DNA from: Escherichia phage T4
Strand: one strand, 5' to 3'
Sequence record: OZ209023.1
DNA length: 64,000 nt
Shown here: in pieces, positions 15,317-58,676 of the stretch
How positions within the stretch are numbered: the stretch's first letter is position 1
How the letters are laid out: each line of letters opens with the position of its first letter
Made by a program: the position numbers and the translations under genes
The notes under the pieces: model-generated
Databases searched by the model: none
What the model was told of the DNA's origin: nothing
The model's input: the letters and a program-made list of their open reading frames with translations, nothing else

Positions 15317-15559
15317 TTAACCAGTTACTTTCCACAAATCTTCATTTGCAGCAATCCATTCAGTACGTTGATTTTCTTCATATACTGTAGAATATGCTGC
15401 TTTTTCTGAAGGGAATGTCTGGTAATGAGCGCCAGAAATTTTGTGAACGTCAGAATAAAGAGGGAAAGCTACAGAAATTTCCTTTCCTTCAATTTTCTTA
15501 TTTCCATCTAATTTCTGCTCAAATGTTTTGATATTAACATAACCGCGAGTACTAGCCAT
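15317..15559 (-). CDS. soc: small outer capsid protein Soc
   Basis: 80-aa ORF MASTRGYVNIKTFEQ...; recognised sequence. Confidence 0.9.
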   Translation of the reverse strand: MASTRGYVNIKTFEQKLDGNKKIEGKEISVAFPLYSDVHKISGAHYQTFPSEKAAYSTVYEENQRTEWIAANEDLWKVTG

Positions 15560-15588
15560 GTAATTCTCCTTTATTTAAATTACATGAT

Positions 15589-15596
15589 TATTTATA
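15589..15596 (-). promoter_or_regulatory. T4 late promoter TATAAATA upstream of soc
   Basis: plus tatttata = minus TATAAATA, about 30 nt upstream of soc ATG. Confidence 0.5.
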
Positions 15597-41367: not shown

Positions 41368-41838
41368 TTAATCATGTTTCCACACCCCATCGGTATTTGA
41401 CCAAAGTCGCTGATTATCTGATCCTCGCCACAGCTTTTTGGTCGGAAGATTTTTCTCATACTTCCCATCAATAATAACATCAACATATTTAAGCATTTCT
41501 AGTTGTTTAATATCTTCAAACTTATATCCTGTCCACAACCAGATATCTTTCTCCGGAAATCTTGCTTTAACCCAAGAAACTAAATTTGAAATCTCTTCTC
41601 GGTTCTGTGGATAAAGTGGGTCACCGCCGGTTAAGGTAAGGCCTTGGATATACGATTTGCTTAAATGGGACGCAAGTTCTTTAACGGTATTCATAGTGAA
41701 TAACTGTCCGTTACGAGCATTCCAAGTACTACGATTATAACAACCTTCGCATTTATGCAAACATCCAGTGACGAAGAGAACGACCCTACATCCAGGGCCG
41801 TTAACGAAATCGCATGGATAAATTCTATCATAATTCAT
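41368..41838 (-). CDS. nrdG: anaerobic ribonucleotide reductase activating protein NrdG (radical SAM)
   Basis: 156 aa from MNYDRIYPCDFVNGPGCR...CxxxCxxC radical-SAM cluster motif. Confidence 0.85.
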   Translation of the reverse strand: MNYDRIYPCDFVNGPGCRVVLFVTGCLHKCEGCYNRSTWNARNGQLFTMNTVKELASHLSKSYIQGLTLTGGDPLYPQNREEISNLVSWVKARFPEKDIWLWTGYKFEDIKQLEMLKYVDVIIDGKYEKNLPTKKLWRGSDNQRLWSNTDGVWKHD

Positions 41839-42460
41839 CTTTATATTTCCAAGTATATCCCTTATGAATAGATTGAATTCCTTTGCAACATTTATAAACA
41901 GCAGAATGAAAAAATCCTGCATTTCTTATTTCAGTTGCTCCAGTTAGTTCTATTGTATTTCCGTCTGGTGAATAGCCAATAACCGTTTTGGTGTTAAAGC
42001 GATTTCTAGAACTATTTTTGATATGCTCTTTATGATTAGTAGACAAAGTTCTTCCTGTTAGCCCATCAGATATCCTTTTTCCAAAATCATCAGGAAGAGT
42101 TACTTTAGACCTAGCTATGCTCATTAGCTTCTTAGTTTTATCGCTTCTTTTTGCGCCACGCTGATTTTCAAATTTCTTAGCTTTTGCATACGCGTATTGT
42201 GAAGAAGTAACTTTTCTATGCTTACTATTACTCATTATCCAATATGCATCATACATCTTTCCACCATATATTTTAGCCAATAAATGGTGAGCAGTATAGT
42301 GGGCCTTATAAGTTAAAAATACTAAGTTGTCTAAATCATCTGAACCACCCATACTTCTTGGAATTATATGATGAAGTTCATACCCGGCTTTAGTTTGACG
42401 GGGCTTAGATGGGTGTTCAGCAGAATTAACTAGATTTGAATAGATTCTGTCATAATTCAT
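41828..42460 (-). CDS. mobC: freestanding HNH homing endonuclease MobC
   Basis: 210-aa ORF; HHIIPRSMGGSDDLDNLVFLTYKAHY HNH motif; between nrdD and nrdG. Confidence 0.7.
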   Translation of the reverse strand: MNYDRIYSNLVNSAEHPSKPRQTKAGYELHHIIPRSMGGSDDLDNLVFLTYKAHYTAHHLLAKIYGGKMYDAYWIMSNSKHRKVTSSQYAYAKAKKFENQRGAKRSDKTKKLMSIARSKVTLPDDFGKRISDGLTGRTLSTNHKEHIKNSSRNRFNTKTVIGYSPDGNTIELTGATEIRNAGFFHSAVYKCCKGIQSIHKGYTWKYKDEL

Positions 42461-45307
42461 TGGTGCTTAACCCTATGCATGATTTCTTTATTTTTACCGA
42501 GATTAAATCCGCGTTCGTTCGGATTTCCCAAATAACCACATGTTCTTCTTATGGTATTCATCTTTTTAGGATCAGTTTCTCCACAAATAGAACAAACAAA
42601 TCCGTTTTCAGTAGGAGTCATTTCATGGGTACTTCCACATGTAAAACATTTATCTACTGGCATATTAACACCAAAATAATCTAAATGCTGTGCAGCATAA
42701 TCCCACACGGCCTCAAGACCTTTTAAGTTATTTTTCATATCAGGAAGTTCAACATAAGAAATGTGACCACCTGTCGCAATGAAATGATATGGCGCTTCAC
42801 GAGAAATCTTTTCAAACGGAGTAATATTTTCTTCTACTGAAACATGGAAACTGTTAGTGTACCAGCCTTTATCGGTAACATCTTTTACGCTTCCATATTT
42901 TTCTGTATCGAGTTTACAGAAGCGATAACACAGGTTTTCAGCAGGAGTCGAATATAAACTAAAAGCAAATCCGGTTCTTTCAGTCCACTGTTTAAGATGA
43001 GCATTCATTTTAGTTAAAATTTCTCGTCCAATATCACGACCGACAAGAATATTCAATTCGTGAATACCAATGTATCCTAAAGACACTGAACTTCTACCGT
43101 TTTTAAATAACTCAATTATGTCGTCATCAGGTTTAAGACGAACCCCGAATGCACCTTCTTGGTAAAGAATAGGAGCAACAGTAGCTTTAACTCCTTTTAA
43201 GGAACTAATTCTACACATCAAAGCTTCAAAACATAAATCCATTCGTTCATTAAATAGCTCAACAAATTTCTGTTCATTGAACTGTGTTCCAATATAAGAA
43301 TCTAACGCGATGCGAGGAAGATTCAGTGTTACAACACCAAGATTATTGCGTCCATCAAGAATTTCATTGCCAGTCGAATCTTTCCATACGCTCAAGAAAC
43401 TACGGCAACCCATCGGAGAAACAGGAACAGATGAACCAGTGATAGCTTTATTGTTCTTAGCTGAAATAATATCAGGATACATCCTTTTGCTTGCGCACTC
43501 TAGAGCAAGCTGTTTAATATCATAGTTCGGATCGTCTTTATAAAGATTAACACCTTCTTCAACGAACATAACAAGCTTAGGGAAAATAGGAGTTATCCCA
43601 TCACGACCAAGACCTTTAATACGATTTTTCAGAATTGCTTTCTGAATCATTCGTTCAGTCCAGTCAGTTCCCGTACCAAATGTAATTGTTACAAAAGGAG
43701 TCTGTCCGTTTGAACTGAATAACGTGTTCACTTCATCAATGTGTTCAGTAGAGTTCGCTACTTCTCTACCCGTTTATATGAAACAATGTAATTTGGATAA
43801 TTGTCATCTAAACACAAATCTTTAATACGACTTGGGTGGAGTTTTAAATCTTTAGCAGCATCCACAAATGATTTATAGATATTGTCATTTATTTTAACAT
43901 ATTCTGGGACGGGATGAATTGTTATTTTTATATCTATAACATTTGGATGATTACTAACCTGTTCTTCAGAGCATTTAAGAAATTTTGCAGCTGATTTAAA
44001 ACTTCTAAATTTATTTCCGGATTTTAAAGCTATAGAAACAGTCTTTTTAGCCGTTCTACTACCAATATTATTTTTAACATGAGCTTCACTTCTACTATTA
44101 TTTTTATAATGCTCAATCAATTTCTCTCGTATCTTATCTTTATGTTTTAAAGATAAGATTTTACCTTTATGGGCATTACTAAGTTTTTGCTTATGTTCTT
44201 CTGAATCCGGATATTTGTTAAATTTATATCCACCTATAGATTTATTAAGAATAAATTCGTTATTAAAATATTTCCTAATAAGCATTTCTTCATGTTTAAG
44301 GGCCGATTCATAAGAATCAAAAACTTGAAGAATTATCCACTTAGCTTTATAATCTTTAAGCTTTTCTTTAACAAGCTTAGATGACGAATTGTATTCTTTC
44401 CAATTTGTATCTTTACCATATATAGTTTTGAATTTTTTAAAACCTATATAAAAAGACTTATCAGGAAATCTTACCATATAGGTAAATGCTACAGAATTGG
44501 CAATTTTTAAGCTTTTTCTTAATTTCCATTTCATCGTTTCACCTCGTATTCATATTTATACGAGGATAAACAGCTGCATGTCACCATGCAGTTCAGACTA
44601 TATCTTCAACTCTTAGAGTTGTCTGCCGTTTCGGGTCGCTTGACCCTACTCCCTTACATTCATCAGGGATAGTCGTTGGGCATTTACAGCTACTGCTGAT
44701 TTAGCAACGGATTGTCTCAGTGAGAGTTTCCCGTTTTAGGCAGATTTTACATGAGCTTGACTTACGTTAACTCATAAGCTTGGAATGCATCGTATACGTC
44801 TTTTTCTGTTTTAGATTGAGCATAATTCAACGCATCAGCGATTTGCCATTTTTCTGCATCCTCAATATGTTTTGCATAGGTGCGTTTAACATAAGGAGAA
44901 AGTACTTTATCTACATTCGCAAAAGTCGTTCCGCCGTATTGGTGAGAAGCAACTTGCGCAGTAATTTGTGCCATAATTGCAGTAGCAACTCCAATTGATT
45001 TAGGAGTTTCAATCTGCGCATTACCAAGCTTAAATCCGTTTTCAAGCATTCCTTTTAAATCTACTAAACAGCAATTAGTAAATGGAAGAGCAGGGGAATA
45101 ATCAATATCATGCACGTGAATAATTCCGCTTTCATGCGCTTTCATAATAAAAGACGGGACCATATTTTTGGCAATGTGTTTAGACACAATACCAGCCATA
45201 AGGTCCCGTTGAGTTGGAAAAACACGAGAATCTTTATTAGCATTCTCGTTTAAAAGGTCTTTATTAGTTTTATGAATTAATCCTTCAATTTCTTTTTCAA
45301 TTGTCAT
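42457..45307 (-). CDS. nrdD: anaerobic ribonucleoside-triphosphate reductase NrdD, interrupted by group I intron: complement(join(42457..43736,44770..45307)), 605 aa
   Basis: exon 2 has C-terminal glycyl-radical motif RRTCGYLG and Cys cluster; exon 1 ORF runs into intron; splice sites placed so exon 1 ends in U, intron ends in G and is 1033 nt. Confidence 0.8.
43758..44534 (-). CDS. I-TevII: intron-encoded GIY-YIG homing endonuclease I-TevII
   Basis: 258-aa ORF inside the nrdD intron; N-terminal FYIGFKK GIY-YIG-like motif. Confidence 0.8.
   Translation of the reverse strand: MKWKLRKSLKIANSVAFTYMVRFPDKSFYIGFKKFKTIYGKDTNWKEYNSSSKLVKEKLKDYKAKWIILQVFDSYESALKHEEMLIRKYFNNEFILNKSIGGYKFNKYPDSEEHKQKLSNAHKGKILSLKHKDKIREKLIEHYKNNSRSEAHVKNNIGSRTAKKTVSIALKSGNKFRSFKSAAKFLKCSEEQVSNHPNVIDIKITIHPVPEYVKINDNIYKSFVDAAKDLKLHPSRIKDLCLDDNYPNYIVSYKRVEK
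44542..44565 (-). promoter_or_regulatory. late promoter TATAAATA (44553-44560) embedded in a hairpin that sequesters the I-TevII SD
   Basis: palindrome cctcgtat...atacgagg; minus-strand TATAAATA and GAGG SD just upstream of I-TevII ATG. Confidence 0.6.
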
Positions 45308-45777
45308 TTTAAACTCTTTCTAAGCTGCTTCTTGAATGAAGCTATTAATTGTGTTTTGGTGTCAGATTCATTATATTCAAATCCTCTTTGAAGCATCTCG
45401 GCCATCATTTCCTCTTTTCCTAAACGAGAAAATTCCTTTGATTTATCTCCAACAAAGTTAGGGTGAATATTATTTTGGGTGTAATCGGATTTTAAATAAG
45501 TAAGTAAATTTTCTAACCATTCAAGATAATCAACACCTTGTCCCTTTAAGCCAGAACGATTAAATTTATGCTTCATTTGACCTTCTGCAGCATTGCATAG
45601 ATTACAAAGCAATCCACGCACCTTTCCTGCTTTTGGTCCATTTAATTCATGGTCATGGTCGAGGTGATTAGCTTGAACATCAGGATTTAGTTCTCGTTGG
45701 CAAATTAAGCATTTACCGTTTTGTGCATCATAAAATTTCTGTTTTTCTTCTTTGTATAATTTGCCAGTCAATAACAT
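45304..45777 (-). CDS. 49: endonuclease VII (Holliday junction resolvase) gp49
   Basis: 157-aa ORF; zinc-binding CLICQ...CNLCN and HxxxH motifs; recognised sequence. Confidence 0.9.
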   Translation of the reverse strand: MLLTGKLYKEEKQKFYDAQNGKCLICQRELNPDVQANHLDHDHELNGPKAGKVRGLLCNLCNAAEGQMKHKFNRSGLKGQGVDYLEWLENLLTYLKSDYTQNNIHPNFVGDKSKEFSRLGKEEMMAEMLQRGFEYNESDTKTQLIASFKKQLRKSLK

Positions 45778-45818
45778 AATAAACCCTTACCTTAAATAGA
45801 TAAGGGTATTTATTATTT

Positions 45819-58668: not shown

Positions 58669-58676
58669 TATTTATA
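58669..58676 (-). promoter_or_regulatory. T4 late promoter TATAAATA upstream of the rI region
   Basis: plus tatttata = minus TATAAATA, 26 nt upstream of the ORF starting at 58643. Confidence 0.5.

What the first reader, a model, noticed from the sequence alone, without database searches (positions are those of the whole stretch)
44534..44570. Late promoter inside an SD-sequestering hairpin upstream of I-TevII
Immediately upstream of the I-TevII ATG, an 8-bp palindrome (cctcgtat / atacgagg, 44542-44565) encloses a minus-strand TATAAATA (44553-44560) and the GAGG SD. Read-through early transcripts would fold the hairpin and occlude the SD. Transcripts started at the late promoter begin inside the hairpin and leave the SD free. 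This is a compact temporal and translational switch for the endonuclease.
Basis: partly seen in the sequence, partly recalled or inferred. Interest (0 to 1): 0.5.

Follow-up and report, generated by a model that had tools for sequence, protein, structure and literature searches.

The report
Known T4 I-TevII expression switch
This is the control region of the phage T4 intron-encoded homing endonuclease I-TevII, published in 1988: a late promoter sits inside an RNA hairpin that hides the ribosome-binding site on read-through transcripts, so the feature is real but not new.

Summary
The window is phage T4 (100% identical to AF158101.6). The stem is CCUCGUAU (44565-44558) / AUACGAGG (44549-44542). 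TATAAATA lies at 44560-44553, the Shine-Dalgarno sequence (SD) GAGGU at 44545-44541, and the I-TevII ATG at 44534.

Folding predicts that GAGG is paired (P unpaired 0.00) in every RNA that includes the 5' arm. In RNAs starting at the predicted late start (about 44547) it is largely free (0.8-0.96 with short 3' ends, 0.33-0.53 with more of the ORF).

A second nrdD-intron lineage, whose endonuclease is only 56% identical, keeps the promoter and the SD arm unchanged. Its 5' arm has changed only in ways that preserve or extend pairing.

TATAAATA is depleted in the window (3 copies against about 11 expected). All three copies lie on the minus strand, each just upstream of an ORF start.

The interpretation matches the published model: Gott et al. 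1988, as reviewed by Edgell, Gibb and Belfort 2010 and by Uzan and Miller 2010. The SD arm also resembles the I-TevII homing site (14/17). That too is published, as the Loizos 1994 pseudo-target and the Edgell 2004 putative operator.

Verdict: confirmed, correctly interpreted, already known. Low interest.

The parts
44535..44572 (-). Complete switch hairpin in read-through RNA: outer helix UGUUU (44572-44568) / AAACG (44539-44535), 2x2 internal loop, inner 8-bp stem, 8-nt loop
   Evidence: RNAfold MFE -15.5 kcal/mol, z = -4.0, 0 of 200 shuffles as stable. The same structure is kept in 101- to 431-nt contexts.
44558..44565 (-). 5' arm CCUCGUAU (anti-SD). Present only in transcripts that start upstream (nrdD pre-mRNA or excised intron).
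   Evidence: Sequence. In the IME537-type lineage it is UCUUGUAU: two G-C to G-U changes with pairing kept.
44553..44560 (-). T4 late-promoter consensus TATAAATA (gp55-dependent -10 element)
   Evidence: Exact match, one of only 3 in the window against 11.0 +/- 3.5 expected. Conserved in the diverged lineage. PMC2988022, citing Gott 1988, reports that primer extension located the promoters driving the three intron endonucleases, and places a late promoter with the RBS-sequestering hairpin upstream of I-TevII.
44545..44549 (-). Predicted late transcription start zone (about 44547, 6 nt after the last A of TATAAATA), inside the 3' arm
   Evidence: Inferred from the usual T4 late-promoter spacing (own knowledge). 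I have no 5'-end data. RNAs starting at 44552-44545 cannot form the stem.
44542..44549 (-). 3' arm AUACGAGG, which contains the SD
   Evidence: Sequence. It lies within a 19-nt block, TATGAATACGAGGTGAAAC, that is identical in a lineage only about 72% identical overall.
44541..44545 (-). Shine-Dalgarno GAGGU, 7 nt (after GAGG) upstream of the AUG
   Evidence: P(unpaired) of GAGG is 0.00 in long RNAs. In late-start RNAs it is 0.8-0.96 with short 3' extent and 0.33-0.53 with 64-100 nt of ORF.
43758..44534 (-). I-TevII ORF (258 aa, GIY-YIG plus NUMOD1 homing endonuclease)
   Evidence: ORF list. 100% identical to the annotated I-TevII of AF158101.6. Pfam SegE_GIY-YIG and NUMOD1 matches are marginal, just below their cut-offs.
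44538..44554 (-). Homing-site-like 17-mer TATGAATACGAGGTGAA (14/17 to the nrdD exon junction, -7..+10). It is a published pseudo-target and putative I-TevII operator, and it overlaps the promoter end, the start site and the SD.
   Evidence: Best match in the whole window on both strands; 8 of 2000 local shuffles reach 14/17. The fused ORF flanks match the target at 19/24. Literature: PMC3984707 (Loizos 1994) and PMC2988022 Fig. 4B.
43737..44769 (-). nrdD (sunY) group I intron, 1033 nt
   Evidence: Boundaries come from comparison with the intronless nrdD of phage ESCO47. The Rfam RF00028 match covers 44805..44574 at 105.3 bits.
44574..44591 (-). Last helix of the Rfam intron core (P9-type hairpin CUGCAUG-GUGA-CAUGCAG), 1 nt upstream of the switch hairpin
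   Evidence: Rfam alignment; fold. Also flagged as weakly terminator-like.
43748..43769 (-). 3'-terminal intron helix GUAGAG/CUCUAC, with the I-TevII stop codon (43760-43758) in its loop
   Evidence: Sequence. The IME537-type lineage has GCAUGA/UCAUGC, so 4 of 6 pairs are changed on both sides.

Best explanation
This is the known temporal and translational switch of the T4 homing endonuclease gene I-TevII, which lies inside the group I intron of nrdD (sunY).

The nrdD pre-mRNA is made from upstream early or middle promoters and must be transcribed through the intron ORF. On that RNA, and on the excised intron, the sequence CCUCGUAU pairs with AUACGAGG and an outer helix reaches the base before the AUG. 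The SD GAGG is therefore buried and ribosomes do not load.

Late in infection, gp55-RNA polymerase initiates at the TATAAATA element that spans the 5' arm and loop, about 6 nt downstream and inside the 3' arm. That RNA lacks the 5' arm and cannot form the hairpin. It carries a 5'-proximal, mostly accessible SD, so I-TevII is translated only late.

The same 3' arm also resembles the I-TevII target (exon junction). This reflects the published 'endonuclease invasion' pseudo-site and may also serve as an autorepressor operator.

**Shown here:** the sequence anatomy, the predicted folds and accessibilities, conservation in a second lineage, and the gene context. **From the literature:** promoter mapping by primer extension and late expression. 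**Inferred:** the exact +1 position, the size of the translational effect for I-TevII specifically, and autorepression.
For: - **Identity:** the window is 100% identical to T4 AF158101.6, with I-TevII and the split nrdD annotated there.
- **Intron:** a group I intron match at 105 bits ends 1 nt before the hairpin.
- **Hairpin stability:** -15.5 kcal/mol, z = -4.0.
- **SD accessibility:** GAGG has P(unpaired) 0.00 for every 5' end at or upstream of 44565, in 52-431-nt contexts. For 5' ends at 44552-44545 it is 0.80-0.96 (3' end 20-35 nt past the AUG) or 0.33-0.53 (64-100 nt past the AUG).
- **Promoter motif:** TATAAATA is depleted (3 against 11.0 +/- 3.5). All three copies are on the minus strand, each upstream of an ORF start (the Soc-like ORF, I-TevII, and the ORFs that follow the thymidine-kinase-like ORF).
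- **Second lineage:** in the IME537/JB75/TH58 type (endonuclease 56% aa identity, about 45 phage records), TATAAATA and the 19-nt SD arm are identical. The 5' arm changes are G-C to G-U twice. T4's two mismatches become A-U and C-G, giving 11 contiguous bp. GAGG has P(unpaired) 0.001 in long RNAs and 0.24-0.74 from the predicted start.
- **Literature:** PMC2988022 sections 9, 10, 12 and Fig. 5; PMC3014915 section 29; PMC3984707 section 12.
Against: - I have no transcript 5'-end or translation data. The primary paper (Gott 1988) and the T4 genome review were not readable here.
- Between the two lineages only the 5' arm varies, so there is no two-sided compensatory change. Conservation of the 3' arm could be due to the SD or the target-like sequence rather than to pairing.
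- Late-start RNAs are not predicted to be fully open once 64-100 nt of ORF are included (P unpaired 0.33-0.53).
- In the IME537-type lineage, a start 1-2 nt earlier than predicted would allow a weak alternative SD hairpin (UAUCUU/GAGGUG).
- A leader with the SD only about 2 nt from the 5' end may translate poorly.
Confidence: 0.9

Rival explanations
1. The hairpin is mainly a structural peripheral helix of the sunY intron, a P9.1-type element following P9. Alternatively its main role is to keep ribosomes out of the intron so that it can fold and splice, as shown for I-TevI/td. On this view timing of the endonuclease is secondary and the promoter location incidental.
For: - The hairpin starts 1 nt after the last core helix found by Rfam.
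- It is kept intact in introns whose endonuclease ORF has been deleted (BYEP01 and 215Ecol030PP).
- For I-TevI, deleting the hairpin impaired td splicing (PMC2988022 section 14; PMC3014915).
Against: - The Rfam core model does not need this helix.
- The ORF-deleted introns are otherwise identical to their parents, so retention may only mean the deletions are recent.
- The promoter and the SD arm are precisely conserved and positioned.
- Protecting splicing works through the same SD occlusion, so this is a difference of purpose, not of mechanism.
Confidence: 0.2
2. The key element is at the DNA level. The 17-mer 44554-44538 mimics the homing site and is an operator where I-TevII binds and represses its own late promoter, as I-TevI does. 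The inverted repeat would then be a by-product.
For: - 14/17 identity to the exon junction (-7..+10). It is the best match in the whole window, and 8 of 2000 shuffles reach it.
- It is perfectly conserved between lineages.
- It covers the predicted start site.
- It is proposed in PMC2988022 Fig. 4B, which marks it as not experimentally shown for I-TevII.
- A fusion of the ORF flanks is cleaved by I-TevII, according to PMC3984707 citing Loizos 1994. The fused flanks match the target at 19/24.
Against: - It explains only the 3' arm. It does not explain why the 5' arm changes between lineages preserve or extend pairing.
- Autorepression is untested for I-TevII.
- The similarity may be a relic of the invasion event.
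- It is compatible with the RNA switch as an extra layer rather than being an alternative to it.
Confidence: 0.35
3. The co-occurrence of an AT-rich motif and a short palindrome in an AT-rich genome is chance.
For: 8-bp perfect hairpins are fairly common, 33 in 64 kb. TATAAATA is an AT-rich octamer.
Against: - TATAAATA is three- to four-fold depleted, with only 3 copies.
- The fold has z = -4.0.
- The whole arrangement is conserved in a lineage with 56% aa identity.
- Experimental promoter mapping is reported in the literature.
Confidence: 0.02

Closest known systems
I-TevI / td intron switch of T4 (Gott et al. 1988; Edgell et al. 2004; Gibb & Edgell 2010)
   Same: An intron-encoded GIY-YIG endonuclease inside an early or middle gene. 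A late promoter lies immediately upstream, the SD is sequestered by a hairpin that only long transcripts can form, and a homing-site-like operator overlaps the promoter (PMC2988022).
   Different: - For I-TevI the hairpin and the autorepression have been tested by mutant phage and binding assays. For I-TevII they are inferred.
- The I-TevII ORF lies after the catalytic core (after P9), not in the P6 loop (own knowledge for td).
- td is not in this window, so I made no sequence comparison.
This very locus as published: I-TevII / sunY (nrdD) intron regulatory region (Gott et al. 1988, Genes Dev 2:1791; Fig. 5 of Edgell, Gibb & Belfort 2010)
   Same: The sequence is identical to T4. The promoter, hairpin and RBS are described in the review.
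   Different: Nothing differs. What I add is quantitative accessibility and the comparison with the IME537-type lineage.
T4 lysozyme gene e, and gene 49 (McPheeters et al. 1986; Barth et al. 1988)
   Same: Late genes that lie on long early transcripts. An inhibitory helix covers the SD and/or AUG. Late promoters sit so that late RNAs lack the 5' strand (PMC3014915). Gene 49 is in this window and shows the same geometry.
   Different: These are ordinary phage genes, not mobile-element genes. There is no intron and no target-like operator. Gene 49 uses a 7/8 promoter match (AATAAATA).
mobE of Aeromonas phage Aeh1 (Gibb & Edgell 2007, 2009)
   Same: A homing endonuclease whose RBS is sequestered by an RNA hairpin, with multi-layered control (PMC2988022).
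   Different: It is a free-standing HNH endonuclease between nrd genes, in a different phage and with a different sequence.

Membership tests
T4-type 'late promoter inside an RBS-sequestering hairpin' switch (e, 49, I-TevI class) | T4 late-promoter element TATAAATA shortly upstream of the ORF, on the coding strand | tested here: met
   Exact TATAAATA at 44560-44553 (-), 19 nt upstream of the ATG. It is one of 3 in the window against 11 expected.
T4-type 'late promoter inside an RBS-sequestering hairpin' switch (e, 49, I-TevI class) | SD and/or start codon base-paired in a stable helix in transcripts that start upstream | tested here: met
   Prediction only. MFE -15.5 kcal/mol, z = -4.0. P(unpaired GAGG) is 0.00 in 52- to 431-nt RNAs.
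T4-type 'late promoter inside an RBS-sequestering hairpin' switch (e, 49, I-TevI class) | The late transcript starts downstream of the 5' strand of the helix, so the helix cannot form | tested here: inconclusive
   The spacing rule puts +1 at about 44547, in the 3' arm. RNAs from 44552-44545 have an open or partly open SD. The actual 5' end cannot be measured here. PMC2988022 reports primer-extension mapping, citing Gott 1988.
T4-type 'late promoter inside an RBS-sequestering hairpin' switch (e, 49, I-TevI class) | The gene is embedded in an earlier transcription unit, so read-through RNA exists | tested here: met
   The ORF lies inside the nrdD intron, between exon 1 and exon 2 on the same strand. 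An 11/12 sigma-70-like promoter lies upstream at 46373-46345 (-).
T4-type 'late promoter inside an RBS-sequestering hairpin' switch (e, 49, I-TevI class) | The protein is made only late, and translation is blocked on long RNA | not testable with these tools
   Literature only (PMC2988022 section 12; PMC3014915 section 29).
Group I intron (Rfam RF00028) | Covariance-model match above the gathering score, with an insertion that restores the host ORF on removal | tested here: met
   105.3 bits against a gathering score of 50. Removing 44769..43737 gives ...AYEYEVNTLFSS..., as in the intronless ESCO47 nrdD.
GIY-YIG homing endonuclease I-TevII | Sequence identity to I-TevII; GIY-YIG catalytic and NUMOD DNA-binding modules | tested here: met
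   100% identity to the annotated I-TevII. The Pfam matches are just below their cut-offs: SegE_GIY-YIG 21.6 against 25 bits, and NUMOD1 22.5 against 22.8.
Endonuclease autorepressor operator (I-TevI type) | A homing-site-like sequence overlapping the endonuclease's own promoter | tested here: met
   14/17 at 44554-44538, the best match in the window, reached by 8 of 2000 shuffles.
Endonuclease autorepressor operator (I-TevI type) | The endonuclease binds the operator and lowers promoter activity | not testable with these tools

The most novel reading that the evidence does not exclude
The least ordinary reading still open has three linked parts.

1. The 3' arm does three jobs at once: it is the SD, the anti-sense partner of the switch helix, and a target-mimic operator for I-TevII autorepression.
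2. That triple constraint would explain why 19 nt are frozen between lineages whose endonucleases are only 56% identical, while only the 5' arm and the loop evolve.
3. In the IME537-type lineage the loop has gained 9 nt, which form a nested hairpin (AUAAGA/UCUUAU) over the promoter and start site.

The nested-hairpin haplotype and I-TevII autorepression have, as far as I could find, not been tested.
Probability: 0.3. Interest if true: 0.25.

Novelty: already known. Interest (0 to 1): 0.07.

Why it matters
It is a compact, textbook example of how a selfish endonuclease gene is kept silent inside an essential host transcript and expressed only late. The mechanism also protects intron folding. 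For this scan its value is as a positive control: the first-stage reader recovered a real, published regulatory device from raw sequence, with correct coordinates and mechanism. It opens no new question beyond the still-untested I-TevII-specific details, namely the size of the hairpin effect and autorepression.

Tried and rejected
- **Primary literature.** Gott 1988, Miller 2003 and Gibb & Edgell 2009 are not held in the library, so I relied on reviews that cite them.
- **More haplotypes, to test covariation.**
  - The search for related loci in viral contigs gave only one T4-like contig.
  - Exact 16-mer scans with GAATACGAGGTGAAAC in viral and metagenome contigs gave one T4-like contig. All the other hits lacked TATAAATA and the ATG context and so were chance matches.
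  - tblastn against phage genomes shows only two lineages, the T4 type and the IME537 type. No two-sided compensatory change could therefore be tested for the switch helix.
- **Literature on a named P9.1 helix of the sunY intron.** The search found nothing usable.
- **Modern T4 transcription-start data.** The search returned nothing specific to I-TevII.
- **RegB cleavage motif.** The SD is GAGG, and there is no GGAG in 44572-44532 (read from the sequence). I rejected this idea.
- **P9 hairpin as a terminator.** The P9 hairpin plus CUGUUUAUCC is flagged as terminator-like. I rejected it because the U-run is weak and nrdD exon 2 must be transcribed through it.
Full report
**Identity of the locus.** The 1.1 kb around the finding is 100% identical to phage T4 (AF158101.6, NC_000866.4 and other T4 records). 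In the T4 record this stretch carries the split nrdD (sunY) gene and, inside its intron, I-TevII.

All features lie on the minus strand of the window.
- The I-TevII ORF is 44534..43758, 258 aa.
- Rfam finds a group I intron core at 44805..44574, 105.3 bits against a gathering score of 50.
- Comparison with the intronless nrdD of phage ESCO47 places the intron at 44769..43737, 1033 nt. Removing it restores ...AYEYEVNTLFSS....

**Check of the observation.**
- The 5' arm CCTCGTAT is at 44565-44558 and the 3' arm ATACGAGG at 44549-44542, with an 8-nt loop.
- TATAAATA is at 44560-44553, covering the last three bases of the 5' arm and five loop bases.
- GAGG(U) is at 44545-44541, in the 3' arm.
- The ATG is at 44534.
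- RNAfold adds an outer 5-bp helix (44572-44568 with 44539-44535) across a 2x2 internal loop, so pairing reaches the base before the AUG.

The structure is unusually stable. It folds at -15.5 kcal/mol, against -6.2 +/- 2.3 for shuffles (z = -4.0; none of 200 shuffles as stable).

Base rates:
- The window holds 33 perfect 8-bp hairpins with 3-10 nt loops, against 14.6 +/- 3.5 in shuffles.
- It holds only 3 exact TATAAATA on both strands, against 11.0 +/- 3.5 expected.
- All three copies are on the minus strand, each just upstream of an ORF start: the Soc-like ORF, I-TevII, and the ORFs that follow the thymidine-kinase-like ORF.

The depletion suggests that spurious late promoters are selected against, so the copies that remain are likely functional. 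Chance co-occurrence is not credible.

**Test of the mechanism by folding.** I computed the pairing probabilities of the SD for RNAs with many 5' and 3' ends.
- For every 5' end at or upstream of 44565, in 52- to 431-nt contexts that include the whole intron core, GAGG has P(unpaired) = 0.00.
- For 5' ends at 44552-44545, which bracket the predicted late start, the stem cannot form. The usual T4 spacing puts that start about 6 nt after the last A of TATAAATA, at about 44547 (own knowledge).
- For those late-start RNAs, P(unpaired) of GAGG is 0.80-0.96 when the RNA ends 20-35 nt after the AUG.
- It is 0.33-0.53 when 64-100 nt of ORF are included, because weak alternative pairings with the coding region appear.

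The model therefore predicts 'fully closed' against 'mostly or partly open', not a perfect on/off switch. Read-through RNA must exist, because nrdD exon 2 lies downstream of the ORF within the same intron. An 11/12 sigma-70-like promoter lies upstream at 46373-46345.

**Comparative evidence.** tblastn and megablast against 50,697 phage records show just two lineages of nrdD-intron endonuclease. One is the T4 type (24 records, at least 95.9% aa identity). The other is a second type (IME537, JB75, TH58 and about 40 others) with 56% aa identity and about 72% nt identity.

In the second type:
- TATAAATA is kept.
- The 19-nt block TATGAATACGAGGTGAAAC (loop end, 3' arm, SD and spacer) is identical.
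- The 5' arm reads UCUUGUAU, which is two G-C to G-U changes.
- The two T4 mismatches (U.U and A.G) become A-U and C-G, giving 11 contiguous base pairs.
- The loop has 9 extra nt that form a nested hairpin, AUAAGA/UCUUAU.

GAGG has P(unpaired) 0.001 in long RNAs of this type and 0.24-0.74 from the predicted start. All the changes lie on one strand, so this is conservation of pairing, not two-sided covariation. By contrast, the 3'-terminal intron helix shows true covariation. T4 has GUAGAG/CUCUAC at 43769-43748 and the other lineage has GCAUGA/UCAUGC, so four of six pairs changed on both sides.

Introns whose endonuclease ORF has been deleted (BYEP01, 215Ecol030PP) still carry the intact switch. 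Scans of IMG/VR and of metagenomes for further haplotypes gave only chance matches.

**A second layer on the same bases.** The 17-mer at 44554-44538, TATGAATACGAGGTGAA, matches the nrdD exon junction (TATGAGT|ATGAAGTGAA, positions -7 to +10) at 14 of 17 positions.
- It is the best match in the whole window on both strands, and 8 of 2000 local shuffles reach it.
- Joining the upstream flank of the ORF to the last 11 nt of the intron gives 19/24 identity to the target.

This is also published. Loizos et al. 1994 noted that the sequences flanking the I-TevII ORF resemble its target, and they showed that the fused flanks are cleaved (as told in PMC3984707). Edgell et al. 2004 proposed that the site upstream of I-TevII is an autorepressor operator like that of I-TevI. 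[quoted passage not shown]

**Comparison with what is known.**
- PMC2988022 (sections 9 and 12, Fig. [quoted passage not shown] 1988).
- It states that all three have an SD sequestered in a very stable RNA structure.
- PMC3014915 repeats this and lists e, soc, 49 and I-TevI as the classical cases.

The locus meets the sequence-level defining features of that class (see the membership table). The functional features (late-only 5' ends, blocked translation) rest on the literature. For the hairpin's effect itself, they rest on analogy with I-TevI and mobE.

**Rivals.**
- A purely structural or splicing-protective role is possible, but it works through the same SD occlusion.
- The operator reading explains only the 3' arm and is best seen as an added layer.
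- Chance is excluded by the conservation and the statistics.

**Verdict.** The feature is already known. Interest is low (0.07). The only loose ends are I-TevII-specific tests of the hairpin effect and of autorepression, and the undescribed nested-hairpin variant in the IME537-type lineage.

Noticed in passing
window 45777-45816 (-): The gene 49 (endonuclease VII) leader has the same design, 1.25 kb upstream. A 10-bp hairpin, ACCCUUAUCU/AGGUAAGGGU (45807-45783), holds the SD in its 3' arm, and an outer helix reaches the AUG at 45777. A 7/8 late-promoter match, AATAAATA, lies at 45814-45807. The long RNA folds at -16.4 kcal/mol (z = -3.3); an RNA from the predicted start at about 45801 folds at -2.0. 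This case is known (Barth et al. 1988, cited in PMC2988022).
   Followed up: partly
window 15557-15596 (-): In the soc leader, TATAAATA (15596-15589) is followed by a 10-bp hairpin, CAUGUAAUUU/GAAUUACAUG. The hairpin contains the AUG (15559) and has the SD AAGGAG in its loop. A late start at about 15583 would remove only 2-3 pairs, leaving -5.6 kcal/mol, so the geometry differs from I-TevII.
   Followed up: partly
whole window; sites 15589-15596, 44553-44560, 58669-58676 (all -): Exact TATAAATA is three- to four-fold depleted: 3 copies against 11.0 +/- 3.5 in dinucleotide shuffles, and all 100 shuffles had at least 3. All three copies are on the minus strand, each upstream of an ORF start. The third follows the thymidine-kinase-like ORF and precedes a 70-aa ORF and a 97-aa ORF beginning MALKATALF..., with no significant hairpin.
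   Followed up: partly
window 43748-43769 (-); L002 about 2540-2570: The 3'-terminal intron helix GUAGAG/CUCUAC has the I-TevII stop codon UAG (43760-43758) in its loop. The IME537-type intron has GCAUGA/UCAUGC at the same place, so four of six pairs are changed on both sides. This is clear covariation for a helix after the ORF.
   Followed up: partly
L007 (BYEP01) 1780-1870; L010 (215Ecol030PP) 1465-1660: These are natural deletion derivatives of the IME537-type intron. Most of the endonuclease ORF is lost, apparently between short repeats (AAAAGACGTTG / AAAGAACGTTG), yet the promoter-hairpin-SD-ATG block is intact. In BYEP01 the downstream nrdD CDS is annotated as starting at the former endonuclease ATG, which looks like a mis-annotation of an unrecognised intron.
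   Followed up: partly
L002 1733-1779 (IME537-type phages): This is a variant switch haplotype. It has 11 contiguous base pairs over GAGGUGA, and a 9-nt loop insertion creates a nested hairpin, AUAAGA-UUA-UCUUAU, that overlaps the end of TATAAATA and the predicted start. A late start 1-2 nt early would allow a weak alternative SD hairpin, UAUCUU/GAGGUG.
   Followed up: partly
window 44574-44591 (-): The last core helix of the intron (CUGCAUG-GUGA-CAUGCAG) followed by CUGUUUAUCC is flagged as terminator-like by the simple scan. It is probably not a terminator, because nrdD exon 2 lies downstream.
   Followed up: no
window 41828-42460 (-): An HNH endonuclease ORF of 210 aa, annotated mobC in T4, overlaps the end of nrdD exon 2 by 4 nt. 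The nrdD region therefore carries two different homing-endonuclease genes within 2.7 kb.
   Followed up: no
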